Source: Pseudonocardiales bacterium | GTDB lineage: Bacteria; Actinomycetota; Actinomycetes; Mycobacteriales; Pseudonocardiaceae | Direction of reading: 5' to 3' | Length of the DNA stretch: 36,304 nt | Assembly: GCA_025465385.1 (NCBI GenBank) | Contig: JAODNG010000408.1 | Coordinates: forward strand, 1 to 36,304 | In this document: in pieces, positions 9,772-34,219 of the stretch | Position numbering within the stretch: position 1 is the stretch's first letter | Layout of the letters: every line of letters begins with the position of its first letter | Translations under genes and position numbers: made by a program | The notes under the pieces: model-generated | The model's database searches: none | Told to the model about the DNA's origin: nothing | Seen by the model: the letters and a program-made list of their open reading frames with translations, nothing else

Positions 9772-11022
9772 CTACCTACTTTCCACCGGCGACGCTGTGA
9801 CGATCTCATACATGGCGTCCTGCAATCCCCGGTCGAGCTCATCGAGGAAGCCCTCGGTGGTCAGGAACGGGGTTTCCGGGCCGACCAGCAATGCCAGATC
9901 CTTGGTCATCTTGCCGCTCTCGACGGTGCCGATGCAGACTCGCTCCAGGGTCTGCGCGAACCGGGTTACTTCGGGAGTCGAATCCAGGGTGCCACGGTGG
10001 CGCAGGCCACCGGTCCAGGCGAAGATCGACGCGATCGGGTTTGTCGAGGTGGGCTTGCCCTGCTGATGCTGCCGGTAATGCCGTGTGACGGTGCCGTGTG
10101 CGGCCTCCGCCTCGACGGTCCGGCCATCCGGAGTCATCAGCACGCTGGTCATCAGACCCAGTGAGCCGTAGCCCTGCGCGATGGTGTCGGACTGCACGTC
10201 GCCGTCGTAGTTCTTGCAGGCCCAGACGTAGCCTCCGGGCCACTTCAGCGCGGCGGCCACCATGTCGTCGATCAACCGGTGCTCGTAGTGCAGGCCGTGT
10301 TCCTCGAAGTCGGCTTTGAACTCCGATTCGTAGATCTCCGCGAACACGTCTTTGAACATGCCGTCGTATGCCTTGAGGATCGTGTTCTTCGTCGATAGGT
10401 AGACCGGATACTCACGAGCTAGCCCATAGCGCAGCGATGCTCTTGCAAAATCCTCGATGGATTTGCGGTGGTTGAACATCCCGACCGCGACGCCGCCATC
10501 CTCGCCGAACCTCGCTACCTCTATCTCCAGCGGTGCCCGGCCGTCGTCGGGAGTGTAGGTGATCGTCACCGTGCCTGGTCCTGGAACGGTGAAATCGCTG
10601 GCCATGTACTGGTCGCCGAACGCGTGCCGGCCAATGATGATCGGCTCGGTCCAGTGCGGCACGAGGCGCGGGACGTTGGAGCAGATGATTGGCTCACGGA
10701 AGATCACTCCGCCGAGAATGTTGCGGACCGTGCCGTTGGGTGAGCGCCACATCTTCTTCAGGCCGAACTCCTCGACCCGCGCCTCATCGGGTGTGATGGT
10801 GGCGCATTTGACCCCCACCCCGTGCCTGGCAATCGCATGCGCGGCGTCGACAGTGACCTGATCGTCAGTAGCGTCGCGGTGCTGGATGGCAAGGTCGTAG
10901 TAGTCGAGGTTGATGTCGAGGTAGGGCAGGATCAGTTTGTCCTTGATGAACTGCCAGATGATCCGGGTCATCTCATCGCCATCGAGCTCGACGACGGTTC
11001 CCACTACCTTGATCTTGTCCAC
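9772..11022 (-). CDS. icd: NADP-dependent isocitrate dehydrogenase (eukaryote-like subfamily II)
   Basis: 416 aa with a GTG start and cAGGAGAg upstream. [34 protein letters not shown] and ...NYDGDVQSD...GTVTRHYR are typical of subfamily II NADP-IDH. Confidence 0.92.
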
Positions 11023-13206: not shown

Positions 13207-13821
13207 TTACGTCCCGAGATCCACCCGCAGCCCGTTCGCTGCGGCGAACCGGATCGCGGTGTCCACGTCGATCCGGGCGCCGATCAGCCGCGCCTGCACC
13301 AGGGCGTCGGCGTCCAGCCGGGCCCCGCGGAGGTCGGCGCCCTCCAGCCGGGCGCCTAGCAACCGCGCGCCGGTGAGGTCCGCTCCGGACAGGTCAGCGC
13401 CCCGCAGGTCGGCCTGCACCAGATTCGCCTCGGTCAGTTTGAGCCCGGCGAGCGCCACCTCGCGGAGATCGGCATGTCCGAGGCCGGTGAGACGCAGGTC
13501 GACTTCCCGCAGCGTCCACGGCCGCAGCCGGCAGTCGCTGAGTGTGCTGCCCAGCAGGGAGCAGTGTTCCAGCACCGAGTCGGTCAGCGTGGTGCGCTGG
13601 AAGGTGCAGCTGTGAAACGCCGTCGCGCGGTGCTGCGAGGCACCCAGGTCGGCGTGGGTGAAGTCGCAGCTGGTGAATCGGCAGCTGCGAGTGCACAGCC
13701 CACGCAGGTCGGCGTCGATGAACCGGCAGCCGACGAAGCAGCGCCCCTCCCACTCCTGGTCGGCGAAGACCGCGTCGGTGAAATCCGTCTCGGTGAAATC
13801 TTCTTCGACGATCTCGGACAT
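13207..13821 (-). CDS. mfpA: pentapeptide-repeat protein, MfpA-like (DNA-mimic gyrase-protection family)
   Basis: 204 aa, almost entirely A(D/N)LXX pentapeptides (ADLRGADLSGADLTGARLLGARLEGADLRGARL). The segments SQHRATAFHSCTFQRTTL...CRLRP and the C-terminal GARIDVDTAIRFAAANGL resemble my recollection of M. tuberculosis MfpA. The gene also lies between folD and dnaE2, as in that genome. Confidence 0.75.
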   Translation of the reverse strand: MSEIVEEDFTETDFTDAVFADQEWEGRCFVGCRFIDADLRGLCTRSCRFTSCDFTHADLGASQHRATAFHSCTFQRTTLTDSVLEHCSLLGSTLSDCRLRPWTLREVDLRLTGLGHADLREVALAGLKLTEANLVQADLRGADLSGADLTGARLLGARLEGADLRGARLDADALVQARLIGARIDVDTAIRFAAANGLRVDLGT

Positions 13822-13969
13822 GCCTGCACTTTCTCAGGCGGCCCGATACGGGTTCCTGGCCCACCCGGCCTCGCTTCCCACCATGATCACGGCCTGTGTG
13901 TCATAGACGACAACTGCGTCGCGCAGGGCACACCGATGGTGATCAACCTGCCACGCTGGATGACCGGTC

Positions 13970-16900
13970 TCATCGGAAGTCACGGGAGTTCGAGCGCACC
14001 CGCATGTCCAGCGCTGCGGCATGCTCAGCGAGCACGTTGATCACTCCTTCGGCGATCTGCAACCGGCCGCGCAGCAGCAGCGCCGGGCAGGCCCGCACGA
14101 TCGTGCGGTATCGCACCCAGAAACCCGGTGAGCAGATCACGTTCACCATGCCGGTCTCGTCCTCAAGATTCAGGAACGTGACCCCGCCCGCGGTGGCCGG
14201 GCGCTGCCGATGCGTCACCGCACCGGCGACCAGCACCCGCTGCCCGTCGTCGCGCTGTCCCAGCTGGGCGGCGGGCACCACACCTAGCCTGGCCAGGTCG
14301 GTCCGGAGGAACTGGGTGGGGAAGCTGTCCGGCGAGACCCCGGTGGCCCAGACGTCGGCCGCGGCGAGTTCCAGCGCGCTCATCCCGGGAAGCGGGGGCG
14401 CGATGACTCCAACTGCGGTGCCGGGCAGCCGGTCCGGACGCTGCGCGGCCACCGCACCGGCGGACCACAGCGCCTGCCGGCGTTGCGGGGTCAGCTCGTC
14501 GAACGCCCCACCGGTGGCCAGCGCCTCGGCCTGGGCGGTGGTCAGCCCCACCCGGTGCGCGACGTCAGCGATGCTGCGGTAGCGGCCGTGCGCCTGCCGT
14601 TCCTCGACCAACCGGGTGGCCAGTGGCTGGCCCATCGTGCGCACCATCGCCAGTCCCAGCCGCACCGCCTGCTCCGGTGCACCCTCCGCGGCTGGTTCCA
14701 GCCCGGCGTGCACCCCGCTGGCGTTGATGTCCGGAGCTCGGACGGTGACACCGTGCCTGCGGGCGTCGGCGATCAGCGACTGCGGGGAGTAGAAGCCCAT
14801 CGGCTGGGCTCGCAGCAGGGCGGCGCAGAACGCTGCCGGGTAGTAATGCTTGAACCAAGCACTGTAATAGACCAGCGAGGCGAAGCTGATCGAGTGGCTT
14901 TCCGGGAAACCGAAGTTGGCGAAGGCCAGCAGCTTGGCGTAGATCTTCTCGGCGAGCTCACCGCGGATCCCGTGCCGGGCCATTCCCTCGAACAGCCGCC
15001 CGCGGAGGCGTTCCATTCGCTCGGTGGACCGTTTCGCGCCCATCGCGCGGCGCAGCTCGTCGGCCTCGGCGGGGGAAAAGTCGGCGACGTCGATGGCCAT
15101 CTGCATCAGCTGCTCCTGGAACAGCGGTACCCCCAGCGTTTTGCGCAGCGCGTTCGCCAGCCGTGGGTGGTCGTAGTCCCAGGCCTCCTGGCCGTTGCGG
15201 CGCCGGATGTAGGGGTGCACCGAGTCGCCCTGGATCGGGCCAGGACGGATCAGCGCCACCTCCACCACCAGGTCGTAGAAGCACCGCGGTTTGAGCCGCG
15301 GCAGGGTGGCCATCTGCGCACGGGACTCCACCTGGAACACCCCGACCGAATCGGCCCGGGACAGCATCGCGTAGACGGCCGGGTCGGTTGGCTGCAGATC
15401 CGAAAGCCGCACCCGGTGCCGGTAGTGCCGCGCCACCAGATCGACCGCGTAGTGCAGCGCGGAAAGCATCCCGAGCCCGAGCAGGTCGAACTTGACCAAC
15501 CCGACAGCCGCACAGTCGTCTTTGTCCCACTGCACCACCGAGCGGTTCTCCCGCCGTGCCCACTCCACCGGGCAGACCTCAGCCACCGGCCGGGAGCAGA
15601 TCACCATGCCACCGGAGTGGATGCCCAGGTGCCTAGGGAATCCCTCCAGCTCGGTGGCTAGGGCTAGTACCGGTTCGGGGATCTCGGTGTCATCTGTGGT
15701 CCGATTCAGCGGCCCCCAGCGGTCGATCTGCTTGCCCCAGGCATCCTGGGTGCCGGTCGAATAGCCCAGCGCCTTGGCCATATCCCGCACCGCGGAGCGG
15801 GCCCGGTAGGTGATCACGTTGGCGACCTGGGCAGCGCAGTCCCGGCTGTATTTCTCATAGACGTACTGGATGGCCTCTTCTCGGCGGTCGGACTCGATAT
15901 CCAGGTCGATGTCGGGGTAGCCGTCCCGATCCGGGGCGAGGAACCGTTCGAAGAGCAGGTCCATCGCCACCGCGTCGACGCTCGTGATGCCCAACGCGTA
16001 GCAGACCGCGGAATTAGCCGCCGACCCGCGACCCTGGCAGAAGATGTCGGCTCGCCGGCAGAATCCCACGATGTCATGCACGATGAGGAAGTAGCCGGGG
16101 AAGTTTTTTTCCTCAATGACGGCCAGCTCATGTTCGATCTGGTGGTAGGCACCGGGACGCTCGTCGTAGCTGCCGTAGCGGGTGGTCGCGCCGACCCAGG
16201 TGAGTTCGCGCAGCCAGCTGGCCTCGGTGTGATCGTCGGGGACGGCGAACGGCGGCAGGTCCGGCGCCACCAGGTGGAGGTCGAAAGAGCACTCCCGGCC
16301 CAGCGCGGCGGCCCGTTCGACGACCCCAGGCCAGCGGGCGAACCGGTCGGCCATCTCGGCTCCGGAGCGTAGGTGTGCTGTTGCCGCGGCCGGTAGCCAG
16401 CCGTCCATCTCGTCCAGGCTGCGCCGAGCCCGGACCGCGGCCAGTGCGGTGGCCAGCCGGTGCCGCGAGGGGGTGGCGTAGTGCGCGGCGGTGGTGGCGA
16501 CGATATCCAGCCCTTGCGCCGCGGCCAGTGCCACGAGCGCGTCGTTACGCTCGGTGTCGTCCGGAAGCCCGTTGGCGGTGAGCTCGACGACGACATGTCC
16601 CGCGCCGAACAGCTCGGTCAGCCGGCGAAGCTGAGTGGCCGCGGCGGCCGGCCCCTCGCATTCCAGCGCTGCCCGCACTGCGGCCTTGCGGCAACCGGTG
16701 AGCACCACCCAGTGCCCACCCGCGGCGGCGGCTACCGCGTTGAGGTCATACACCGGCTTACCCTTCTCTTTCCCGGCGATCTGGGCGTCGCTGATCACCC
16801 GGGACAGCCTGCGGTAACCCTCGGGGTCGCGGGCCAGCACGAGCAGGTGCTCGCCCTGCGGGTCGGGTATCCCGTTCTGCGGTGAAGTAAGGCCGAGGCT

Positions 16901-17314
16901 GAGCTCCGCCCCGAATACGGTCTTGATACCCAGCTCCCTGGCCGCCTCCGCGAAGCGCACCACCCCGTACATCCCGTCGTGGTCGGTGATCGCGATCGCG
17001 TCCAATCCCAGCCGGGCCGCCTCTTCGACCAGCTCCTCGGGATGACTGGCCCCGTCCAAAAAGCTGAAGTTGGAGTGACAGTGCAGCTCGGCATAGGGAA
17101 TCCGCGGTTGAATCTCCGGGAGCTGGGTCTCTGGGAGCTGGGTCGAGGTGAGCAGTGACGGTGGCTCGTAGCGATCCCGGTGACGTGTCCACGCCGGACT
17201 GTCCCCCCCGTCACCGGGTTGCTTCTTGTCGCGGTTCCCGGATCTGCCGGCAGTCCGCCCGGACAGCGCCCGCTCCAAATCCGCCCACTGCACCGGCGGG
17301 TTGTTCCAGCCCAT
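13970..17314 (-). CDS. dnaE2: error-prone DNA polymerase III alpha-subunit paralogue DnaE2 (ImuC)
   Basis: 1114 aa. The N-terminus MGWNNPPVQWADLERAL and PHP domain YAELHCHSNFSFLDGASHPEELVEEAARLGLDAIAITDHDGMYG match DnaE2-type proteins, as do the overall size and the polIIIA core (GRGSAANS..., FDLLGLGMLS). Confidence 0.92.
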   Translation of the reverse strand: MGWNNPPVQWADLERALSGRTAGRSGNRDKKQPGDGGDSPAWTRHRDRYEPPSLLTSTQLPETQLPEIQPRIPYAELHCHSNFSFLDGASHPEELVEEAARLGLDAIAITDHDGMYGVVRFAEAARELGIKTVFGAELSLGLTSPQNGIPDPQGEHLLVLARDPEGYRRLSRVISDAQIAGKEKGKPVYDLNAVAAAAGGHWVVLTGCRKAAVRAALECEGPAAAATQLRRLTELFGAGHVVVELTANGLPDDTERNDALVALAAAQGLDIVATTAAHYATPSRHRLATALAAVRARRSLDEMDGWLPAAATAHLRSGAEMADRFARWPGVVERAAALGRECSFDLHLVAPDLPPFAVPDDHTEASWLRELTWVGATTRYGSYDERPGAYHQIEHELAVIEEKNFPGYFLIVHDIVGFCRRADIFCQGRGSAANSAVCYALGITSVDAVAMDLLFERFLAPDRDGYPDIDLDIESDRREEAIQYVYEKYSRDCAAQVANVITYRARSAVRDMAKALGYSTGTQDAWGKQIDRWGPLNRTTDDTEIPEPVLALATELEGFPRHLGIHSGGMVICSRPVAEVCPVEWARRENRSVVQWDKDDCAAVGLVKFDLLGLGMLSALHYAVDLVARHYRHRVRLSDLQPTDPAVYAMLSRADSVGVFQVESRAQMATLPRLKPRCFYDLVVEVALIRPGPIQGDSVHPYIRRRNGQEAWDYDHPRLANALRKTLGVPLFQEQLMQMAIDVADFSPAEADELRRAMGAKRSTERMERLRGRLFEGMARHGIRGELAEKIYAKLLAFANFGFPESHSISFASLVYYSAWFKHYYPAAFCAALLRAQPMGFYSPQSLIADARRHGVTVRAPDINASGVHAGLEPAAEGAPEQAVRLGLAMVRTMGQPLATRLVEERQAHGRYRSIADVAHRVGLTTAQAEALATGGAFDELTPQRRQALWSAGAVAAQRPDRLPGTAVGVIAPPLPGMSALELAAADVWATGVSPDSFPTQFLRTDLARLGVVPAAQLGQRDDGQRVLVAGAVTHRQRPATAGGVTFLNLEDETGMVNVICSPGFWVRYRTIVRACPALLLRGRLQIAEGVINVLAEHAAALDMRVRSNSRDFR

Positions 17315-17323
17315 GATGTGGAC

Positions 17324-18925
17324 CTAGAAGGGGGGCGGGTCGTCGCCGGATGGAGGGTGCGTGCCGGGTCGATGGTCGTGGGGATGGCTGGTGTAGCTGT
17401 GACCGGTGGGAGTGGTCCAGGTGATGGTGCTGTCGAGATGCTGCTCGACCTGCCAGCTGGGGGCATGGGTTTTGAGCCGGTGGTGATGGCGGCAACTGGC
17501 GTGCAGGTTGTGTTCGCTGGTGGTGCCGTCGGAGTGGTAGGGGATGGTGTGGTCGAGGTCGGCCCGGGCGGCGGGCTGACGGCAGATCGGATTGCGGCAG
17601 AACACGTCGCGAGCGCGGACGAAGTCCGCCAGGCTGGCCGGTGGGGTGTAGGTGGTGCGGCCGTAGTCGAGCAGGGTGCCCGAGACCGGGTCGGTCAGCA
17701 GTCGCCGCCAGGTGCCTTGCGCGGCGATCTCGCGGGCCAGCTCGGCGGGAATAGGTCCGTGGCCGACCAGTTCCCCAGGCTGTTCATTCAGTCCCAGCAG
17801 CATGGTGATCGGCACGATCACGGAGATCAGCGGTTTGCCCGGTCCGGTCGCGCGGGTGGGTTCGCAGCAATGGCCACCTGGGCTCGGTGCGTTGGCAGGA
17901 TTGGAGGAGCTGGCCTGGCTTGCGGAGTCGGAGACCGGGTCCGGTGTGGTCTCGGGAGATGCCGTACCGCTGGCATCGTCGGGACAGTCATCGTCAGGAC
18001 AGCGGCAGTCGCCGGAACACCGCTGGTCCATGCAGGAGCCGGTAGCTGCGCAGCGCCGTCCGGTGAGCAGCTCGACGAGCAGGTCGGCACGCCGAGCGTC
18101 CATCCCGCGGTCGTCGCTACCCAACCCGCGCGCAAGGTCACAGAGCCGCTGGTAGGCGGCGGTGGCGTCCGAAGCCGACAGCAACGCCCACAGTGACGCC
18201 ATGCCCTCCTCGTCGGGGGACACCACCACTCGTCGGTCCTGGCGCCGCCACTGGTGACGCTCGGCTGCCCCCTTGGGGTCGAGCGCCAGCACCGCACGGG
18301 TCAGCGCAGCCCGCAACTGAGCGATCGTCTGGGTCCCGGCGCGGCGCAACACCCGCGCCTCCAAGGCTCCCCGCAGCTCAGGAGCCAGCAGATAGCTGGC
18401 TTCAGTGATCGCCCTCGCCTTCAGCGAATCGATCGCCCCGGCCTCCCACGCGGCCAGAGTGCCGGGCAACTCCGCGACCAGGGTCTGGGCCATCACCAGC
18501 CGCCCGGTCGCGGTCATCCGCGACAACCGCAACGCCAAGGCCACCTCATCCGGAGCGAATTCACTGCATCGCGACGGGGTATCCGAATTGGTCGCCAGCA
18601 GATGATCTTCCGGGCGGCGTCGGGCGAACTCGGCCAGCAATACTGCCTGACGCGCCAACGCCCACGAGGCCACGCGATCGAATCCGATCACCGCGTCAAT
18701 CAACTCGCTATCGGACAGCGCAGCTAGATCAGCGCAGCCGTGATCCAACTCCAACGCCAGCCACCCCGACGGGGCGCACGCCGACACCGGCGGCTGGGCT
18801 GCCTCCGGTGGTCCCGAGGCCTCAGTCAGCCAGGCAGCCTCATCCAGCCAAGCCGGGTCGAAAGAGTCCTCATCGACCGGGATACCCACAACGGGCAGCT
18901 CCTCGACTTGACTCATATCGAACAT
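17324..18925 (-). CDS. DUF222-type HNH endonuclease (REP13E12-like family)
   Basis: C-terminal HNH module: FCRNPICRQPAARADLDHTIPYHSDGTTSEHNLHASCRHHHRLKTH. The upstream DUF222-like region is Ala/Leu-rich, and there is a Cys/Pro/Ser-rich insert. Preferred start is ATG 18925 (MFDMSQVEEL...), 7 nt after a TAGAAT -10 element; ATG 18916 is an alternative. The track start at 19060 would read through the promoter and operator. The stop TAG 17326-17324 lies 9 nt before the dnaE2 ATG. Confidence 0.85.
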   Translation of the reverse strand: MFDMSQVEELPVVGIPVDEDSFDPAWLDEAAWLTEASGPPEAAQPPVSACAPSGWLALELDHGCADLAALSDSELIDAVIGFDRVASWALARQAVLLAEFARRRPEDHLLATNSDTPSRCSEFAPDEVALALRLSRMTATGRLVMAQTLVAELPGTLAAWEAGAIDSLKARAITEASYLLAPELRGALEARVLRRAGTQTIAQLRAALTRAVLALDPKGAAERHQWRRQDRRVVVSPDEEGMASLWALLSASDATAAYQRLCDLARGLGSDDRGMDARRADLLVELLTGRRCAATGSCMDQRCSGDCRCPDDDCPDDASGTASPETTPDPVSDSASQASSSNPANAPSPGGHCCEPTRATGPGKPLISVIVPITMLLGLNEQPGELVGHGPIPAELAREIAAQGTWRRLLTDPVSGTLLDYGRTTYTPPASLADFVRARDVFCRNPICRQPAARADLDHTIPYHSDGTTSEHNLHASCRHHHRLKTHAPSWQVEQHLDSTITWTTPTGHSYTSHPHDHRPGTHPPSGDDPPPF

Positions 18926-18933
18926 GTGTTCGA
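18918..18933 (-). promoter_or_regulatory. LexA (SOS) box, perfect actinobacterial consensus
   Basis: TCGAAC-ACAT-GTTCGA is a perfect inverted repeat matching the mycobacterial/actinobacterial consensus TCGAAC-N4-GTTCGA. It overlaps the -10 element and contains the HNH ATG in its spacer. Confidence 0.75.
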
Positions 18934-18941
18934 TTCTACCA
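18933..18941 (-). promoter_or_regulatory. extended -10 promoter element TGGTAGAAT (leaderless-type promoter of the HNH gene)
   Basis: The minus strand reads ...cagaTGTGGTAGAATCGAACACATGTTCGATATG. TAGAAT fits TAnnnT and has a TGn extension. The ATG begins 7 nt after the hexamer, which is the expected TSS distance, and there is no SD. Confidence 0.5.
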
Positions 18942-19132
18942 CATCTGACGGAGGCTGCTTGGGCGTCGCAGTAGCCAGTTGCCCGCCGACGTAGGCAATC
19001 GGCCCGCGCGGGCAGCGCGTGATCCGGCTCAGGACTTCCGAAGTCACGGCCAACCGCCAACGCGGCTGCCCGTCGGACTCCAAAGAAGTTTCGGGTCCTG
19101 GTCGTCGAATCGGCAGGGCAGGATCCGTTGCT

Positions 19133-19893
19133 GTGAGCAATGGCGACCCGACGTTCGTGCTGGTGACCGGCTCGGGAGCGATGTCGTTCCGGTGGAACCC
19201 GCTGATCCGAGAACTTATGCTGCGCGGTCAGCGTGCCCTACCCATTGAGCTGCCCGGGCACGGGTTCGACACCGTGTTCCCTCCGGCTACGGCAGCCCCC
19301 AGGACCTCGACCAGCTCGCCACCGCCGCCTCACCGCTGGCCGGGCTGATCCTCGACGACTACGCCGAACACACCTTAGGCATCATTTGGCGGATCGCCGA
19401 GCACGGCCCCGGTCGTTCTAGTGGGCCACAGCCTAGGCGGCAGCACCCTGACCCGGGTCGCCAACACCGCCCCGGAACAGCTGGCCCGGATCGTCTACCT
19501 GAGCGCGTACTGCTGCGTCGCTTCCCCGATCGTGCTCGCTTACGCTCCGACCGCGCCAGCGCCTGACAGCCCGCTTGGACGGGCTCGGCGGATCTCCTTT
19601 CTCGGTCAACCCGGGCGTACCTGGGTCTCGCGGATCAACCCACGAACCACCGACCCCGACGTGCTTGCTGTGCAGCACGCTCTGCTGATGGCCGACCTGA
19701 ATCCGGCACAGGTGCCGGCGGTACTCGCCTACGCCACCCAACCCGACGAGCCGCTGCAGGTTGTCGTCACCGACGCCCGGTTGACCCCGAGACGTGGCGA
19801 CGGCTGCCGCGCACCATCGCAGCCAGCCACTATGCCCCGATCACACAACCCTCAGAGGTCGCCGACATCCTTACCGCCGCGAGTGCCGCCTAG
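19133..19893 (+). pseudogene. alpha/beta-fold hydrolase pseudogene (at least 3 frameshifts plus a probable internal deletion)
   Basis: The homology-like reading switches frames 2>1>2>1. Segment 1: GTG19133 VSNGDPTFVLVTGSGAMSFRWNPLIRELMLRGQRALPIELPGHGFDTVFPP. Segment 2 (from about 19288): YGSPQDLDQLATAASPLAGLILDDYAEHTLGIIWRIAEHGP. Segment 3 (from about 19412): VVLVGHSLGGSTLTRVANTAPEQLARIVYLSAYC... (GxSxG nucleophile elbow) ...DARLTP. Segment 4 (from 19789): ETWRRLPRTIAASHYAPITQPSEVADILTAASAA then TAG 19891-19893. The stretch between LPRT and the SH(Y)AP His region is much shorter than normal for the fold. Confidence 0.72.
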
Positions 19894-20025
19894 TAGAGGC
19901 CTCCGCCACGATCAGAAGCTGAAGCGGCCGAGAGCCGCCGCTGTTCGGTAAGCCGATCCTCCCCCGGAACACCAGCGCGGTCACAAGTCGCCACTAGTCA
20001 GGCTGTCCGTAGTTCGTCGAGCAAC

Positions 20026-20044
20026 GCGGCGATGAAACCGCCGC
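20026..20044 (-). terminator. GC-rich hairpin 12 nt downstream of the PAC2-family gene stop
   Basis: The minus strand reads GCGGCG-GTTTCAT-CGCCGC followed by GTTGCT. This is the first convincing hairpin downstream of the imuA'-imuB-PAC2 gene string. Confidence 0.4.
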
Positions 20045-20055
20045 AGACGTCCCTA

Positions 20056-20925
20056 CTACTCCCCTTGCTCGCCGCGGAGGAAGCGCTCGAGCTCGGCGGC
20101 GAGCTCGTCACCTGACGGAAGGTCCGAGAAGTCGAACGGTGCGGTCAATTCGCCGTCGAATGCGGCCTCGAGGCGGCGCACCAACGCACGGTATTCCTCG
20201 CTGTCGGCGATAGTCTCGTTGATTTGGTCTAACACACTGGCGGCGGCGGCATGCAAGTCTGCAGCGTCGAGCTCCAGCCCGGCCACGGCTGCCAGCGCCT
20301 CGACGAGCGCGGCGGAGGCCGCCGGGTACGGGACGCTAGCCAGGTAGTGAGGCACTCGCGCCCATATCCCGATGGCGGGAATGCCCGCGGCGGCAAAGCC
20401 TTCTTGGAGCGCGGTCTGGATCCCGGCCGGCATCTCCGCGGTGCCAGGCACCACTCCCACCTGCGCCGCGAGCTCAGCCGTGGTGGCGATCGCCATCAGA
20501 TTGACCGGACGGGTGTGCGGGACAGGAGCGGCGAAGGCACCGAGACCGACCACCAACCGCACTCCTCGCTGGGTGGCCAGGTCCACGACGGCCCGCACGA
20601 AGGCATGCCAGGCCATGTCGGGTTCGGGCCCCACCAGGACGAGGACATCTCTGCCTGCAGCATCCTGACCGACCCGCAGCTGGAGCTCGGGCCAGGTCAG
20701 GTTATCGACGACTCCGTCGCAGATCCGCAGGATGGGACGACGAGACCGGAAATCGATGAGCTCGTCCGCGTTGAAGGTCACCAGCACCTCTGTCGAGATC
20801 TTCTCAAGAGTGTGAGCGATCGCTGCTTGAGCTCCGAGGCCGGCGTCGACCCAGCTTTCCGTCGCGAGGAGCAGCACTGGCGACTCCAACGGGCGGTGAG
20901 AGTGCAACTCGTAGAGTGATGACAT
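20056..20925 (-). CDS. PAC2 (proteasome assembly chaperone 2-like) family protein
   Basis: About 289 aa. SPVLLLATESWVDAGLGAQAA..., VLVLVGPEPDMAWHAF..., PHTRPV..., GIWARVPHYLASVPYPAASAALVEAL..., with an acidic C-terminus. This pattern fits the actinobacterial PAC2-family proteins I recall. ATG 20925 is preferred; TTG 20934 and GTG 20928 are alternatives. Confidence 0.75.
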   Translation of the reverse strand: MSSLYELHSHRPLESPVLLLATESWVDAGLGAQAAIAHTLEKISTEVLVTFNADELIDFRSRRPILRICDGVVDNLTWPELQLRVGQDAAGRDVLVLVGPEPDMAWHAFVRAVVDLATQRGVRLVVGLGAFAAPVPHTRPVNLMAIATTAELAAQVGVVPGTAEMPAGIQTALQEGFAAAGIPAIGIWARVPHYLASVPYPAASAALVEALAAVAGLELDAADLHAAAASVLDQINETIADSEEYRALVRRLEAAFDGELTAPFDFSDLPSGDELAAELERFLRGEQGE

Positions 20926-20973: not shown

Positions 20974-22536
20974 TTACTCGTACATTCCCTCGACCTTCCA
21001 GCGACCCGTCTCGCAGCCCAGCAGGACCGCCAGCGGCCCGGCAGGTTCGGCGTCCAGGACCGCTTGCAATCGCGCGCAGCGCCGTCCTCCGCCAGGCTCC
21101 CACCAGCGCTCCTCGATCGGCCAGGGCCCGGCCCAGGCCAGCACCCGTCGCGGCGGGTCCCCGTCCACCGCGATCCGGTACGGCACGCTGGTGAGCTTTC
21201 CGCGTCCGCTCACCCCGACGACGCGTCCGGCATCGTCAAAAACCTCGGCGGCCAGCGGGCGGGCGGGCACCCGAGATGGGGACGGTGCAGGCAGCCGGCC
21301 GGGCCAGGGAGAATCCGCACCGTGCACCGGAGCCGGGTCTTCGCCCCAGGACCCCAGGCGTACCCGATCATGGGGATTCCGGCCGCCGCCGAGGACTCCG
21401 ATGAGTACTGCCTCGGGTCCGAGCATCCCCTGAACCCGGACCAGGGCCCGGCCGGCCCGCTCGTCGTCTTCCCCCGACTCCCCCCACAACCCTCGTTGCA
21501 GGGCCTGCCCACCGATCACCTCTTCCGGGATCAGCTGCAGCAGCGTGATACCCGCACCGCGGTGTGATCCGCGAGAGGTCAGCCAGCCGTCGAGCTGCCA
21601 ACGGACCCGATCAGCGATCCCGGATGTGGTCAGCGGCTCAGCGCAGCGCCACACCCGGTGTAGCTGCTCCTCGGCCTCGGTGCAGGCGCTGATTCCGAGC
21701 CGGATGCAGGCCAGACCGCGGGTGGCCAGTGCCTCGTGCAGTTGCTGAGCTGGTTCCCGGGAGGCGAATGCCGCCGCATCGACCCGGTCCAGCGGCGGGT
21801 CGAACCGGCGAGCGACGGTGAGATCGACCGGCGGGTGGCGGCGGGCCAGCGGGCGCTCGTCCAGCCCCTGGGCCAGCCGGTGCGCGCACACCCCGACGAG
21901 GCCGAACCGGGAGGCGACATCATCAACGGGTAGGGCGGCGAATGCACCGAGGGTGCGCAGTCCCAGCCGGTGCAGCAGGTCCACCAGCGCGGCCCGATCA
22001 GCGGCAGGCTGGTGTAGCTCGGCGATGCTCAAGGTGGCAAGAAAACCGGCCGAACCATCCGGTGGCACCAGCAGACCTCGATGCGCGGCCAAGGTCGCAG
22101 CGAACAGGCCGTCGGCGATACCGATCTGGCATTCCATCCCGGCCTGCGCGGCGACCACATCGACGATCCGTTCGGCCACCGCTGGTTCGCTACCGAAGTA
22201 CCGGGTCGGGCCCCGAGCCGGTACCGCGACCAGCCCCGGGCGCACCAACTCGACCCCGGGCGCCAGGGCCTCGACGGCGGCAACCACCGGCTCGAACACC
22301 CGGGCGTCCCGGTCCGGGTCGTCGGCGAGCACGACCAGCTCCGGGCACCGTCCCTGCGCCTCACGGCGGCGCTGCCCGCGACGCACCCCCTGTGCCCGGG
22401 CGACCGCCGAGCAGGCCAGCACTCTGTTCGCGGCTACCACCGCCGCCGGTGTCTGGGAAGCCAAACCCTCAGCGACTGCTCCGGCCACCACGGGCCAGTC
22501 CGGGCACCAGACCACCACCACCCGAGGCGGCCTCAT
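20974..22536 (-). CDS. imuB: ImuB, Y-family-polymerase-like mutasome adaptor
   Basis: 520 aa. The N-terminus MRPPRVVVVWCPDWPVVAG is typical of ImuB, with a Y-family-like fold region (ELVRPGLVAV...TRYFG) and a long C-terminal extension. The start overlaps the imuA' stop (ATGA). Confidence 0.87.
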   Translation of the reverse strand: MRPPRVVVVWCPDWPVVAGAVAEGLASQTPAAVVAANRVLACSAVARAQGVRRGQRRREAQGRCPELVVLADDPDRDARVFEPVVAAVEALAPGVELVRPGLVAVPARGPTRYFGSEPAVAERIVDVVAAQAGMECQIGIADGLFAATLAAHRGLLVPPDGSAGFLATLSIAELHQPAADRAALVDLLHRLGLRTLGAFAALPVDDVASRFGLVGVCAHRLAQGLDERPLARRHPPVDLTVARRFDPPLDRVDAAAFASREPAQQLHEALATRGLACIRLGISACTEAEEQLHRVWRCAEPLTTSGIADRVRWQLDGWLTSRGSHRGAGITLLQLIPEEVIGGQALQRGLWGESGEDDERAGRALVRVQGMLGPEAVLIGVLGGGRNPHDRVRLGSWGEDPAPVHGADSPWPGRLPAPSPSRVPARPLAAEVFDDAGRVVGVSGRGKLTSVPYRIAVDGDPPRRVLAWAGPWPIEERWWEPGGGRRCARLQAVLDAEPAGPLAVLLGCETGRWKVEGMYE

Positions 22537-23297
22537 CAGCCCACCGCTCTGATAGTCAGGTCCGCGAGCATCTCCTCCACCGGACCGCCGGGACCGGGCA
22601 GCAGCAAACGGGCAGTACGAGGCCGAGCCGCCGCACCGCGGCCGACCGCGCGCACCACGACCTCGCGGCTGCGCAGCCGTCCATGCCCGGCCTCCGCGCC
22701 ATGCCAGGCCTCAACACGGCAGTCCAGCTCGATGTCCGCGCCCGGCCATCGACCGAGCGGAAGCAATACCGATCCGCGCTGCCGGGCCCGGGCGGCCAGG
22801 GATCGCCGCGCGCCGGGCGATATCCGCTCAGTGCCCGCCAGCGCCACCAGGGCCATCCCGTCGAGCAGGGCCGCGGCCACTGAGGCCGGATCCGGCCCAG
22901 CTCGGGGGATCAGCGCCAGCCGCTGCAGCACCACTCCTGTCTCGGCTGCGGCCAACACGCCGAGATCTTCAGCGCCGATCACCGCAGCCCAGGCCCCCTG
23001 CGCGGTGGCCGCGGCCAGCAACGTCAGCAGCAACGCCATCGAGCCCTGCACCGCGACCACCGATCCCGGGCGCAGACCACCGGGCAGCAGCGGCGCGACC
23101 GGTTCGACTACCGGGAATGGCAGCCGGCCGCCCGGGACGTCGAGCCGCTCCTGCAGCGTCGACGCCGGGGCGACCGGTGCTCGGTGCAACACCGACGCGA
23201 CGCTCGCAACCGCCATCCGGCGGCCTCCTCCCAACGGTGGGTACGCGCTGACAACCGCACCCGGATCCGCTGCGGGGAAGGCAGCGTAGGGGAACAT
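22536..23297 (-). CDS. imuA': ImuA' (RecA/KaiC-fold-like mutasome component); start uncertain
   Basis: LLPGGLRPGSVVAVQGSMALLLTLLAAATAQGAWAAVIGAEDLGVLAAAETGVVLQRLALIP resembles ImuA/ImuA'-type proteins, and the gene lies directly upstream of and coupled to imuB. Two candidate starts exist. ATG 23297 sits inside the LexA box. ATG 23216 is preceded by GGGAGGAGG 7 nt upstream and would give 226 aa. Confidence 0.75.
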   Translation of the reverse strand: MFPYAAFPAADPGAVVSAYPPLGGGRRMAVASVASVLHRAPVAPASTLQERLDVPGGRLPFPVVEPVAPLLPGGLRPGSVVAVQGSMALLLTLLAAATAQGAWAAVIGAEDLGVLAAAETGVVLQRLALIPRAGPDPASVAAALLDGMALVALAGTERISPGARRSLAARARQRGSVLLPLGRWPGADIELDCRVEAWHGAEAGHGRLRSREVVVRAVGRGAAARPRTARLLLPGPGGPVEEMLADLTIRAVG

Positions 23298-23305
23298 ATG
23301 TTCGA
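23290..23305 (-). promoter_or_regulatory. LexA (SOS) box upstream of, or overlapping the 5' end of, imuA'
   Basis: The minus strand reads TCGAAC-ATAT-GTTCCC: the core GAAC-N4-GTTC is intact and the outer two bases of one half-site differ. It lies in the 68-bp divergent intergenic region. TACTAT (TAnnnT) is just upstream, with TTGACG 19 nt further upstream. Confidence 0.7.
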
Positions 23306-34196: not shown

Positions 34197-34219
34197 ACCT
34201 TAAGCGCTGCCACCGACAA
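34197..34219 (-). promoter_or_regulatory. match to the mycobacterial RecA-independent (RecA-NDp / PafBC-type) DNA-damage promoter motif
   Basis: The minus strand reads TTGTCGGTG-GCAGCGCT-TAAGGT, against the published motif tTGTCRgtg-N8-TAnnnT. It sits in the last codons and stop of menD. The -10 element ends 19 nt before the peptidase ATG, so a TSS 6-8 nt downstream would fall at the SD GGGGAGG. Confidence 0.45.

What the first reader, a model, noticed from the sequence alone, without database searches (positions are those of the whole stretch)
17315..18941. Perfect LexA box plus leaderless-type promoter drives a DUF222/HNH endonuclease gene that ends 9 bp before dnaE2
Seen: TCGAACACATGTTCGA (18918-18933) abuts TGGTAGAAT (extended -10). 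An ATG (18925) lies in the box spacer exactly 7 nt after the -10, with no SD, which is the geometry of a leaderless mRNA. The HNH ORF runs to TAG 17326-17324, and the canonical dnaE2 start (MGWNNPP..., ATG 17314) follows after 9 nt. I found no other GAAC-N4-GTTC between the box and dnaE2. Established: TCGAAC-N4-GTTCGA is the actinobacterial LexA operator and dnaE2 is a core SOS gene. As I recall, several REP13E12-family (DUF222/HNH) genes of M. tuberculosis are also damage-inducible. Inference: SOS control of the error-prone polymerase seems to be exerted through the promoter of a selfish-looking endonuclease gene, giving an HNH-dnaE2 bicistron. Either the nuclease inserted between dnaE2 and its operator and hitch-hikes on the SOS response, or it contributes functionally, for example by making breaks that feed mutagenic repair. 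I know of no description of this fusion.
Basis: partly seen in the sequence, partly recalled or inferred. Interest (0 to 1): 0.7.

Follow-up and report, generated by a model that had tools for sequence, protein, structure and literature searches.

The report
SOS-controlled nuclease gene promoter drives dnaE2
In a group of uncultured soil actinobacteria, the error-prone DNA polymerase gene dnaE2 appears to be switched on after DNA damage by the promoter of a selfish-looking nuclease gene lying just upstream, and relatives that have lost most or all of the nuclease gene still keep that promoter in front of dnaE2.

Summary
A perfect actinobacterial LexA box (18918-18933) is fused to an extended -10 (TGGTAGAAT). 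An ATG sits in the box spacer with no Shine-Dalgarno sequence. A 533-codon DUF222/HNH ORF ends 9 nt before dnaE2, and there is no other box between them.

Comparative data support a LexA-controlled HNH-dnaE2 bicistron. Sixteen lineages of uncultured Pseudonocardiaceae carry the same -10/box/start-codon module directly 5' of dnaE2.
- Eight have an intact HNH gene (dN/dS about 0.2-0.4).
- Three have 5' frameshifting deletions.
- Four keep only in-frame mini-ORFs of 12-41 codons that still stop 8-12 nt before dnaE2.
- One fuses HNH codons 1-3 straight onto the DnaE2 core.

The operator is not dnaE2's displaced one. Its geometry differs from canonical dnaE2 promoters, and dispersed HNH paralogues carry the identical module. 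So dnaE2 rides on the nuclease gene's own SOS promoter.

The ancestral state was probably an imuA'-imuB-dnaE2 operon. LexA control of this nuclease family (REP13E12) and of dnaE2 are each known. The captured-promoter operon was not found in the literature searched. No transcript or LexA-binding data exist.

The parts
18933..18941 (-). Extended -10 element TGGTAGAAT (TGn + TAGAAT). Its last T is also the first base of the LexA box.
   Evidence: Read directly. A TAnnnT hexamer ending on box base 1 is present in 20 of the 21 module-bearing loci aligned. Thirteen also have TGn, and the L007-type loci have a TTGC(A/G)(G/C) -35 instead.
18918..18933 (-). Perfect actinobacterial LexA operator TCGAAC-ACAT-GTTCGA. 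It overlaps the -10, the predicted transcription start and codons 1-3.
   Evidence: It is the only 0-mismatch match in the window. The 8-base core is expected 0.28 times per window. The box is perfect in 21 of 21 family loci aligned.
18923..18925 (-). ATG start codon at box positions 9-11, 7 nt after the -10. No Shine-Dalgarno sequence, so a leaderless mRNA is predicted.
   Evidence: ATG or GTG sits at the same box position in all orthologues. Of 120 homologues, 79 are called with an MF(D/E/G) or VFD N-terminus, and about 12 more contain the translated box IEH(M/V)F(D/E) internally.
17324..18925 (-). DUF222/HNH (REP13E12-like) nuclease gene, 533 codons plus TAG.
   Evidence: Pfam DUF222 E=1.7e-20. 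Public gene callers give the same 533-aa product. dN/dS is 0.19-0.43 among intact orthologues.
18044..18565 (-). DUF222 domain, best Pfam stretch aa 121-294. Predicted to be all-helical.
   Evidence: In the AlphaFold model, helices covering roughly aa 45-100 and 140-225 have pLDDT of about 77-97, with lower confidence for aa 100-140.
17471..17599 (-). HNH nuclease motif (C443, C448, D458-H459, N473, C478, H482, K485).
   Evidence: PF01844 20.9 bits against a cut-off of 21.4. PHROG HNH E=4.8e-6. The residues are invariant in 50 homologues, except K485, which is conserved in at least 90%.
17327..17347 (-). C-terminal tail GDDPPPF, which resembles the SSB C-terminal tip.
   Evidence: 107 of 120 homologues end in PPF. 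The mycobacterial SSB tip is FGGGDDEPPF (PMC7847540).
17315..17323 (-). 9-nt intercistronic spacer gtccacatc between the HNH stop and the dnaE2 start. No Shine-Dalgarno sequence and no terminator.
   Evidence: The spacer is 8-12 nt in 14 of 15 lineages, counting both long HNH genes and mini-ORF remnants. The simple scan found no terminator-like site.
13970..17314 (-). dnaE2, error-prone DNA polymerase III alpha, 1114 aa.
   Evidence: NF004225 at 1524 bits. PHP, DNA_pol3_alpha, finger and HHH_6 domains are present.
17105..17314 (-). N-terminal extension of DnaE2 (aa 1-70, MGWNNPP...), upstream of the core IPYAELHCH. Its length is hypervariable in this clade.
   Evidence: The extension is 70 aa here, about 82 in L007, about 92 in L106, 21 in L009, 9 in L090 and 3 in L011.
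23290..23305 (-). Second LexA box (TCGAACATATGTTCCC on the minus strand), upstream of imuA'. It is probably the ancestral operator of the cassette.
20974..23216 (-). imuA' (23216-22536, ATG preceded by GGGAGGAGG) and imuB (22536-20974).
   Evidence: NF058630 ImuA' E=5e-53. Pfam IMS family E=8.6e-17. Sequence read.
19191..20877 (.). Genes that interrupt the cassette: a PAC2 family gene (20877-20056, minus strand) and a decayed alpha/beta-hydrolase remnant (about 19191-19951, plus strand).
17433..17448 (-). Weak box-like sequence TCGAGCAGCATCTCGA (3 mismatches) inside HNH codons VEQHLD. Judged non-functional.
   Evidence: At most 3 mismatches in only 4 of 11 long-HNH loci, with no adjacent TAnnnT, and the region is deleted in the mini-ORF lineages.

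Best explanation
A DUF222/HNH gene of the REP13E12 type carries a compact SOS module of its own. The module is a -10 hexamer fused to a perfect LexA operator, with the ATG/GTG start codon inside the operator spacer. This fixes the protein's N-terminus as M-F-D/E. In a clade of uncultured Pseudonocardiaceae one copy of this gene sits immediately 5' of dnaE2, with its stop 8-12 nt before the dnaE2 start, and it supplies dnaE2's only recognisable promoter and operator.

Inferred mechanism: LexA bound to the box occludes the -10 and the transcription start. After DNA damage, RecA-stimulated LexA cleavage releases a leaderless bicistronic mRNA. Ribosomes start at the 5'-terminal AUG and terminate 9 nt before the dnaE2 AUG. 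dnaE2 is then translated by termination-reinitiation or coupling.

Inferred history: an ancestral imuA'-imuB-dnaE2 operon was interrupted by PAC2 and other genes. The nuclease cassette's promoter took over SOS control of dnaE2. The nuclease coding sequence is dispensable to the host and has decayed repeatedly to a short leader ORF or to nothing.

Shown here: the sequence architecture, its conservation and the deletion series. Inferred only: LexA binding, the transcription start site, co-transcription and translational coupling.
For: 1. Architecture is confirmed.
2. The same module is perfect in 21 of 21 family loci, with ATG/GTG at box positions 9-11. This includes four dispersed paralogues that are not near dnaE2: L108, L109, L111 and L113.
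3. The geometry differs from canonical dnaE2 promoters. In 47 of 73 informative species, dnaE2 has its own box (at most 1 mismatch) within 100 nt of its start, mostly at -25 to -57. In the common arrangement a TAnAcT -10 and a leaderless start follow the box.
4. Sixteen of the 73 informative dnaE2 loci, including most of the closest cultured Pseudonocardiaceae, have imuB directly upstream of dnaE2 and no box of their own.
5. The HNH-dnaE2 junction is conserved. The gap is 8-12 nt in 10 of the 11 lineages with a long HNH gene and 30 nt in L090, down to 60% HNH identity.
6. In 7 of the 11, including the window, there is no TAnnnT in the 400 nt before dnaE2. There is no conserved extra box, no RecA-NDp motif in the region and no terminator.
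7. A natural deletion series exists. L117, L115, L116 and L114 keep the module plus in-frame mini-ORFs of 33, 41, 19 and 12 codons, each ending 8-12 nt before dnaE2.
8. L011 fuses VFD in frame to the DnaE2 core IPYAELHCH. The 50 nt upstream of its box are 66-70% identical to L007-type HNH promoters, against 32-47% for other promoter types.
9. LexA control of most 13E12 genes and of dnaE2 is established in M. tuberculosis (PMC3381160).
Against: There is no transcript, TSS or LexA-binding evidence, and the organism is uncultured. Promoters for alternative sigma factors inside the HNH gene cannot be excluded by sequence alone.

Three lineages (L089, L091, L092) carry frameshifting deletions early in the HNH gene. 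These would break translational coupling, yet dnaE2 stays intact, so coupling may not be essential.

In L114 the box has one mismatch and the -10 is degraded.

The mini-ORF and fusion cases come from metagenome-assembled contigs and each is seen only once. A search for further L011-type proteins found none in the top 120 hits.

In L009 and L088 the module follows PAC2 within about 25 nt on the same strand, so read-through from upstream could contribute.
Confidence: 0.72

Rival explanations
1. The nuclease is a working partner of the mutasome. It would make nicks or breaks, or process stalled forks, to feed ImuA'-ImuB-DnaE2 synthesis, and the operon exists because the two proteins act together.
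For: Intact orthologues are under purifying selection (dN/dS 0.19-0.43). The HNH catalytic residues are invariant. The linkage persists down to 60% HNH identity. The family carries an SSB-tip-like acidic ...PPF tail that could dock on repair proteins.
Against: The gene is disrupted, reduced to 12-41 codons or deleted in 8 of 16 lineages, while dnaE2 and the promoter are kept. Close paralogues sit at unrelated loci. The same family is LexA-controlled in M. tuberculosis without being linked to dnaE2 (PMC3381160).
Confidence: 0.13
2. dnaE2 has its own promoter inside the 3' part of the HNH gene, possibly using the weak box-like site at 17433-17448. The upstream LexA box would then control only the nuclease.
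For: A site with 3 mismatches lies at -134 in the window and in L007, and has 2 mismatches in L088. L112 has a 3-mismatch site at -153. The simple scans used here cannot see promoters for alternative sigma factors.
Against: The site is not conserved in 7 of 11 long-HNH loci, and both mismatches in L088 fall in the GTTC core. In 7 of those 11 loci, including the window, there is no TAnnnT within 400 nt of dnaE2. The four mini-ORF lineages and L011 have deleted this whole region yet keep the 5' module.
Confidence: 0.07
3. SOS control of dnaE2 still comes mainly from the imuA' promoter (box at 23290-23305), through a long read-through transcript imuA'-imuB-PAC2-...-HNH-dnaE2.
For: All of these genes are on the same strand, and the ancestral arrangement in related Pseudonocardiaceae is an imuA'-imuB-dnaE2 operon. 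In L009 and L088, PAC2 abuts the HNH promoter.
Against: In the window, a 1.1 kb stretch with an opposite-strand hydrolase remnant intervenes. L106 has an opposite-strand TetR gene and L112 an opposite-strand glyoxalase gene. In L011, imuA'B are not upstream at all. A perfect second operator would be redundant.
Confidence: 0.06
4. The box and the -10 are chance or relic sequences with no regulatory role.
For: None beyond the lack of experiments.
Against: The 12 specified bases are perfect in 21 of 21 loci, although flanking synonymous divergence (dS) reaches about 0.9. Both exact GAAC-N4-GTTC cores in the window lie at the 5' ends of SOS genes.
Confidence: 0.02

Closest known systems
LexA-regulated REP13E12 (DUF222/HNH) genes of Mycobacterium tuberculosis (Rv0336, Rv0515, Rv1702c, Rv2100 and others)
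   Same: Same Pfam family (DUF222 plus a C-terminal HNH domain). Same TCGAAC-N4-GTTCGA operator at the gene's 5' end. Multicopy, dispersed and selfish-looking (PMC3381160).
   Different: In M. tuberculosis these genes are not linked to dnaE2, which has its own SOS box. Here one copy is fixed immediately 5' of dnaE2 and provides its only operator. I did not find the operator-embedded leaderless start codon (N-terminus M-F-D/E) described in the papers searched.
imuA(')-imuB-dnaE2 SOS mutagenesis cassette (Erill et al. 2006; Warner et al. 2010, both as cited in PMC3381160)
   Same: All three genes are present on one strand within 9.3 kb. A LexA box lies upstream of imuA', and DnaE2 and ImuA' match their NCBIfam models.
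   Different: The cassette is interrupted between imuB and dnaE2 by PAC2, a hydrolase remnant and the HNH gene. dnaE2 is re-promoted from a second, foreign LexA operator.
Canonical actinobacterial dnaE2 promoter (own box within 100 nt of the start, usually followed by a TAnAcT -10 and a leaderless start)
   Same: It is LexA-controlled and, by its geometry here, leaderless. The operator consensus is the same.
   Different: The element order is reversed. Canonical: box, then -10, then start. Here: -10, then box with the start codon inside it. In addition, an upstream cistron or mini-ORF lies between the promoter and dnaE2.
Leaderless lexA mRNA of M. tuberculosis (PMC2897130)
   Same: It is an SOS gene whose translation start coincides with its transcription start.
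   Different: That case was demonstrated experimentally. This one is inferred from geometry and conservation only.
Promoter donation by mobile elements (for example outward-facing IS promoters); named from general knowledge
   Same: A selfish element's promoter comes to drive an adjacent host gene and is retained after the element decays.
   Different: The donor is not a transposase-bearing IS. The donated promoter carries the same stress regulation (LexA) that the host gene needs, so regulatory logic is preserved rather than altered.

Membership tests
Actinobacterial LexA (SOS) operator | Palindrome TCGAAC-N4-GTTCGA | tested here: met
   0 mismatches at 18918-18933. Perfect in 21 of 21 related loci.
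Actinobacterial LexA (SOS) operator | Overlaps the core promoter of the regulated gene | tested here: met
   It shares a base with the TAGAAT -10 and covers the predicted +1. This is geometry only.
Actinobacterial LexA (SOS) operator | LexA binding and RecA-dependent damage induction | not testable with these tools
   Needs EMSA or ChIP, and expression with and without mitomycin C.
REP13E12 / DUF222-HNH family | DUF222 (PF02720) domain | tested here: met
   E=1.7e-20, 74 bits against a cut-off of 24.4.
REP13E12 / DUF222-HNH family | C-terminal HNH nuclease motif | tested here: met
   PF01844 scores 20.9 bits, just under the 21.4 cut-off. PHROG HNH gives E=4.8e-6. D458, H459, N473 and H482 are invariant.
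REP13E12 / DUF222-HNH family | Dispersed multicopy distribution | tested here: inconclusive
   Paralogues at unrelated loci occur in related metagenomes. Copy number in this genome could not be counted.
REP13E12 / DUF222-HNH family | Nuclease activity | not testable with these tools
   No solved homologue. The structure model is poor, with pLDDT 55.
imuA'-imuB-dnaE2 mutagenesis cassette | DnaE2, ImuA' and ImuB all present | tested here: met
   NF004225 at 1524 bits, NF058630 at E=5e-53, IMS domain present.
imuA'-imuB-dnaE2 mutagenesis cassette | Contiguous operon under a single LexA box | tested here: not met
   It is interrupted by PAC2, an opposite-strand hydrolase remnant and the HNH gene. 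A second box lies at 18918.
Leaderless mRNA | A/GTG start 6-8 nt after the -10, with no Shine-Dalgarno sequence | tested here: met
   7 nt separate TAGAAT from ATG. The position is invariant across orthologues, which alternate between ATG and GTG.
Leaderless mRNA | Mapped TSS coincides with the start codon | not testable with these tools
   Needs 5'-RACE or TSS-seq.
Homing endonuclease (intron-, intein- or free-standing phage type) | Located in an intron or intein, or beside a cognate cleavage site, with presence/absence polymorphism at one site | tested here: inconclusive
   It is free-standing and intergenic, not in an intron or intein. HNH synonymous divergence (dS) is about twice that of the flanking genes, which hints at cassette exchange. 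No empty target site was identified.

The most novel reading that the evidence does not exclude
The DUF222-HNH proteins, which include the unexplained REP13E12 family of M. tuberculosis, are SOS-triggered nucleases. In this reading they use an SSB-tip-like acidic ...DDPPPF tail to reach SSB-partner proteins at stalled forks or gaps, and they create substrates for the ImuA'-ImuB-DnaE2 mutasome. The HNH-dnaE2 operon of this clade would then be a functional module rather than an accident of insertion. The in-frame mini-ORFs would be retained because dnaE2 translation on a leaderless mRNA depends on termination-reinitiation.
Probability: 0.12. Interest if true: 0.8.

Novelty: new variant of a known kind. 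Interest (0 to 1): 0.5.

Why it matters

This locus shows a route by which that wiring can be rebuilt. When the ancestral imuA'-imuB-dnaE2 operon was broken, a selfish SOS-controlled nuclease gene supplied a ready-made LexA-regulated leaderless promoter. That promoter was then kept while the nuclease decayed. The full-length, frameshifted, mini-ORF and fusion forms act as a natural deletion analysis.

The work also exposes two family-wide features of the poorly understood REP13E12/DUF222-HNH proteins: an operator-encoded N-terminus (M-F-D/E) and an SSB-like C-terminal tail. Both give testable handles on their function.

Tried and rejected
- **Simple promoter and terminator scan of 13800-19200:** it found nothing, not even the HNH promoter, so it is uninformative for actinobacterial promoters that rely on the -10 alone.
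- **RecA-NDp/PafBC motif search:** no hit near the locus. The one perfect hit, at 34197-34218, precedes a secreted M1 peptidase and is probably chance.
- **imuA' as a second leaderless gene with its start in the box:** rejected. A strong Shine-Dalgarno sequence (GGGAGGAGG) precedes the ATG at 23216, and the -10 is offset.
- **L013, L014 and L079 extra boxes at about -1.5 to -1.9 kb:** in L013 (box at -1851) and L014 (box at -1857) these are boxes upstream of imuB. L079 has a divergent ORF there. None are HNH genes.
- **L054 (M. celeriflavum) divergent DUF222 gene sharing dnaE2's box:** rejected. It has its own degenerate box and start about 130 nt away.
- **Protein function of the nuclease:** the PDB sequence search gave nothing and PADLOC gave nothing. 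The AlphaFold model was poor, with mean pLDDT 55 and an unresolved HNH region. Foldseek against the PDB gave no match with E below 1.
- **Search for more L011-type DnaE2 proteins (MFD-IPYAELH):** none among the top 120 hits. That search did, however, lead to the mini-ORF loci.
- **Davis et al. 2002 (PMC135081):** not held in the library.
Full report
**1. Observation**

On the minus strand the window reads ...gatgTGGTAGAATCGAACACATGTTCGATATGAGT....
- The 16-mer TCGAACACATGTTCGA occupies 18933-18918.
- The extended -10 TGGTAGAAT occupies 18941-18933 and shares its last T with the box.
- The ATG at 18925 lies at box positions 9-11, seven nucleotides after the -10, with no Shine-Dalgarno sequence.
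- This ATG is in frame with an ORF that ends at TAG 17326-17324.
- Nine nucleotides later (17314), dnaE2 starts with MGWNNPPVQW.

GAAC-N4-GTTC occurs twice in 36 kb against 0.28 expected. The second copy (23292) lies upstream of imuA'. The full motif has no match with two or fewer mismatches between the box and dnaE2.

The upstream ORF is DUF222 (E=1.7e-20). Its HNH motif is marginal by Pfam (20.9 bits against a 21.4 cut-off). It is seen by PHROGs (E=4.8e-6), and its catalytic residues are invariant in 50 homologues. dnaE2 matches the error-prone polymerase model at 1524 bits.

**2. Surroundings**

The order on the minus strand is as follows:
- LexA box (23305-23290)
- imuA' (23216-22536)
- imuB (22536-20974)
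- PAC2 (20877-20056)
- a decayed alpha/beta-hydrolase remnant on the opposite strand
- the -10/box module
- HNH
- dnaE2
- a pentapeptide-repeat gene
- folD

The source is an uncultured Pseudonocardiaceae. Six public contigs encode the identical DnaE2 and have the same arrangement. L001 is 99.7% identical to the window over 23 kb.

**3. What dnaE2 normally looks like**

I fetched 80 dnaE2 loci from species-representative genomes. Of 73 informative ones:
- 47 have their own LexA box (at most one mismatch) within 100 nt of the MGW start, mostly at -25 to -57. These include Mycobacterium, Rhodococcus, Nocardia and a Pseudonocardia. In the common arrangement the box is followed by a TAnAcT -10 and about 6 nt, so dnaE2 itself looks leaderless and the box lies upstream of the -10.
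- 16 have imuB directly upstream of dnaE2 and no box of their own. These include most of the closest cultured Pseudonocardiaceae: Lentzea, Actinosynnema, Actinokineospora, Amycolatopsis, Saccharothrix and Saccharopolyspora. Where enough upstream DNA was available, the nearest box is 2.3-3.2 kb away, which fits an imuA'-imuB-dnaE2 operon.
- Only the window's own clade has the HNH gene in between.

**4. The module belongs to the nuclease family**

In all 21 family loci aligned, the box is perfect. A TAnnnT hexamer ends on box base 1 in 20 of them. The start codon is ATG or GTG at box positions 9-11, which gives M/V-F-D/E.
- Thirteen loci have a TGn extended -10. The L007-type loci have a TTGC(A/G)(G/C) -35 instead.
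- Four dispersed paralogues at 54-62% identity (L108, L109, L111, L113) are not near dnaE2 and carry the identical module.
- Among the 120 closest homologues, 79 are called with an MF(D/E/G) or VFD N-terminus, and about 12 more contain the translated box internally.

This geometry is the reverse of the canonical dnaE2 promoter. The operator therefore came with the nuclease gene and is not dnaE2's displaced operator. LexA control of most 13E12 (DUF222/HNH) genes is already established in M. tuberculosis (PMC3381160).

**5. The linkage is old and the junction is conserved**

In every locus but one where the DNA downstream of a closely related HNH gene is available, dnaE2 follows. The exception is the partial copy L097. 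The loci are the window species, L007, L009, L088-L092, L106/107, L110 and L112.
- The gap is 8-12 nt in all of these except L090, where it is 30 nt.
- This holds down to 60% HNH identity.
- A rough neighbour-joining tree puts the linked copies in one broad clade, with one free copy (P0058) nested inside it.
- Intact orthologues are under purifying selection, with dN/dS of 0.19-0.43 against 0.12-0.28 for dnaE2.

**6. No sign of an independent dnaE2 promoter**

- In 7 of the 11 lineages with a long HNH gene, including the window, there is no TAnnnT hexamer in the 400 nt before dnaE2.
- The only extra box-like site (17433-17448, 3 mismatches) lies in the codons VEQHLD and is not conserved.
- There is no RecA-NDp motif in the region and no terminator-like hairpin.

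**7. A natural deletion series**

- Three lineages (L089, L091, L092) carry different frameshifting deletions in the 5' third of the HNH gene.
- Four MAG contigs keep the -10/box/start module but have collapsed the gene to mini-ORFs: MFDKRSGGASLAGARCHEDWFDPTWLDPDPPPS* (L117, 33 codons), MFDKIGLADFVCARDLSCRNPICGQHAATAHPPLGDDPPPF* (L115, 41), MFEYRPEPQPPPGHDPPPF* (L116, 19) and MFDYPTKVERPF* (L114, 12).
- All four mini-ORFs are still in frame to a stop 8-12 nt before the dnaE2 start.
- In L011 (DnaE2 90% identical to the window's) the module is fused in frame, GTG TTC GAT | ATT CCT TAC GCT GAG, so the protein begins VFD-IPYAELHCH. The 50 nt upstream of its box are 66-70% identical to the L007-type HNH promoters, against 32-47% for other promoter types.

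So across 16 lineages the promoter, operator and start codon are what is conserved in front of dnaE2. The nuclease coding sequence is expendable in half of them. This is the strongest evidence available without RNA data that the module is dnaE2's functional SOS promoter.

All four mini-ORFs are in frame. For random deletions this would be expected about once in 81 cases. It suggests that termination just upstream of the dnaE2 start, meaning translational coupling on a leaderless mRNA, is under selection. The three frameshifted long genes argue that coupling is not absolutely required.

**8. Best explanation and rivals**

Most likely (about 0.7), an ancestral imuA'-imuB-dnaE2 operon was interrupted. 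A REP13E12-like cassette with its own LexA-repressed leaderless promoter came to lie immediately 5' of dnaE2. That promoter now provides dnaE2's SOS control through a bicistronic, or mini-ORF plus dnaE2, leaderless transcript.

The rivals are these:
- A true functional partnership between the nuclease and DnaE2 (about 0.13). Purifying selection and long linkage favour it, and repeated loss counts against it.
- An internal dnaE2 promoter (about 0.07).
- Read-through from the imuA' promoter (about 0.06).
- No regulatory function at all (about 0.02).

**9. Comparison with what is known, and novelty**

LexA control of 13E12 genes and of dnaE2, and the imuA-imuB-dnaE2 cassette, are all known. I found no description of the following in the searchable literature:
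- an HNH-dnaE2 operon;
- dnaE2 being driven from the nuclease family's operator;
- the operator-embedded start codon as a family trait.

I rate this a new variant of a known kind. It is an instructive case of promoter capture from a selfish SOS gene. It has moderate specialist interest and sits in uncultured organisms.

**10. Limits**

All functional steps are inferred. That covers LexA binding, the TSS at A18925, co-transcription and coupling. The mini-ORF and fusion cases are single metagenome-assembled contigs. The nuclease's biochemical role remains unknown, because the structure prediction and fold or sequence searches against solved structures gave nothing usable.

Noticed in passing
window 17327-17347 (minus strand); homologues P0001-P0120: The nuclease family ends in an acidic ...D-D/E-P-P-P-F tail. 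107 of 120 homologues end in PPF, and the window protein ends GDDPPPF. This closely resembles the mycobacterial SSB C-terminal tip FGGGDDEPPF, which recruits SSB partner proteins. It may be SSB-tail mimicry.
   Followed up: partly
L001, L106, L110 and L112, HNH gene compared with imuB, PAC2, dnaE2, pentapeptide and folD: Synonymous divergence (dS) of the HNH gene is 0.72-0.87. For the same close genome pairs (L001, L106, L110), most flanking genes are at about 0.30-0.38 and PAC2 is at 0.44-0.61. HNH dS does not scale with genome distance. This suggests the cassette alleles are older than the species splits, or are exchanged or converted from paralogues.
   Followed up: partly
window 17105-17314 (DnaE2 aa 1-70) and its orthologues: The DnaE2 N-terminal extension between MGWNNPP and the core IPYAELHCH is hypervariable in length: 92, 82, 70, 21, 9 and 3 aa in different lineages. 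Most of it therefore seems dispensable.
   Followed up: partly
window about 19191-19951 (plus strand): An alpha/beta-hydrolase gene between PAC2 and the HNH promoter looks decayed. It is split into several ORFs in the window, and its ends look out of frame even in the 252-aa call in L001. The window differs from L001 by a 1-nt indel here.
   Followed up: partly
L054 about 9835-9860 (Mycolicibacterium celeriflavum): A divergently oriented DUF222/HNH gene lies next to dnaE2 in a mycobacterium. It has its own degenerate box-embedded start (TAGATTCGTTCGTATGTTCGA, N-terminus MFDQL) and a ...KPPPF C-terminus. The module geometry therefore extends beyond Pseudonocardiaceae.
   Followed up: partly
window 34197-34218 (minus strand): A perfect match to the RecA-NDp/PafBC-type motif (TGTCGGTG-N8-TAAGGT) lies just upstream of a signal-peptide-bearing M1 peptidase gene. 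It is probably chance, since about 6 matches with up to 2 mismatches are expected per window.
   Followed up: partly
L011 1-9925: In the lineage with the fused promoter-dnaE2, the locus is rearranged. A RhuM-family gene and a Ser/Thr kinase replace imuA'B upstream of PAC2. About 6 kb carrying a permease, a GntR regulator and two HTH-TPR regulators lies between PAC2 and dnaE2.
   Followed up: partly
L013 8150 and L014 (box at -1851 and -1857 from dnaE2): Some imuA'-imuB-dnaE2 operons (Actinokineospora, Actinophytocola) carry a second perfect LexA box inside the 3' end of imuA', just upstream of imuB.
   Followed up: no
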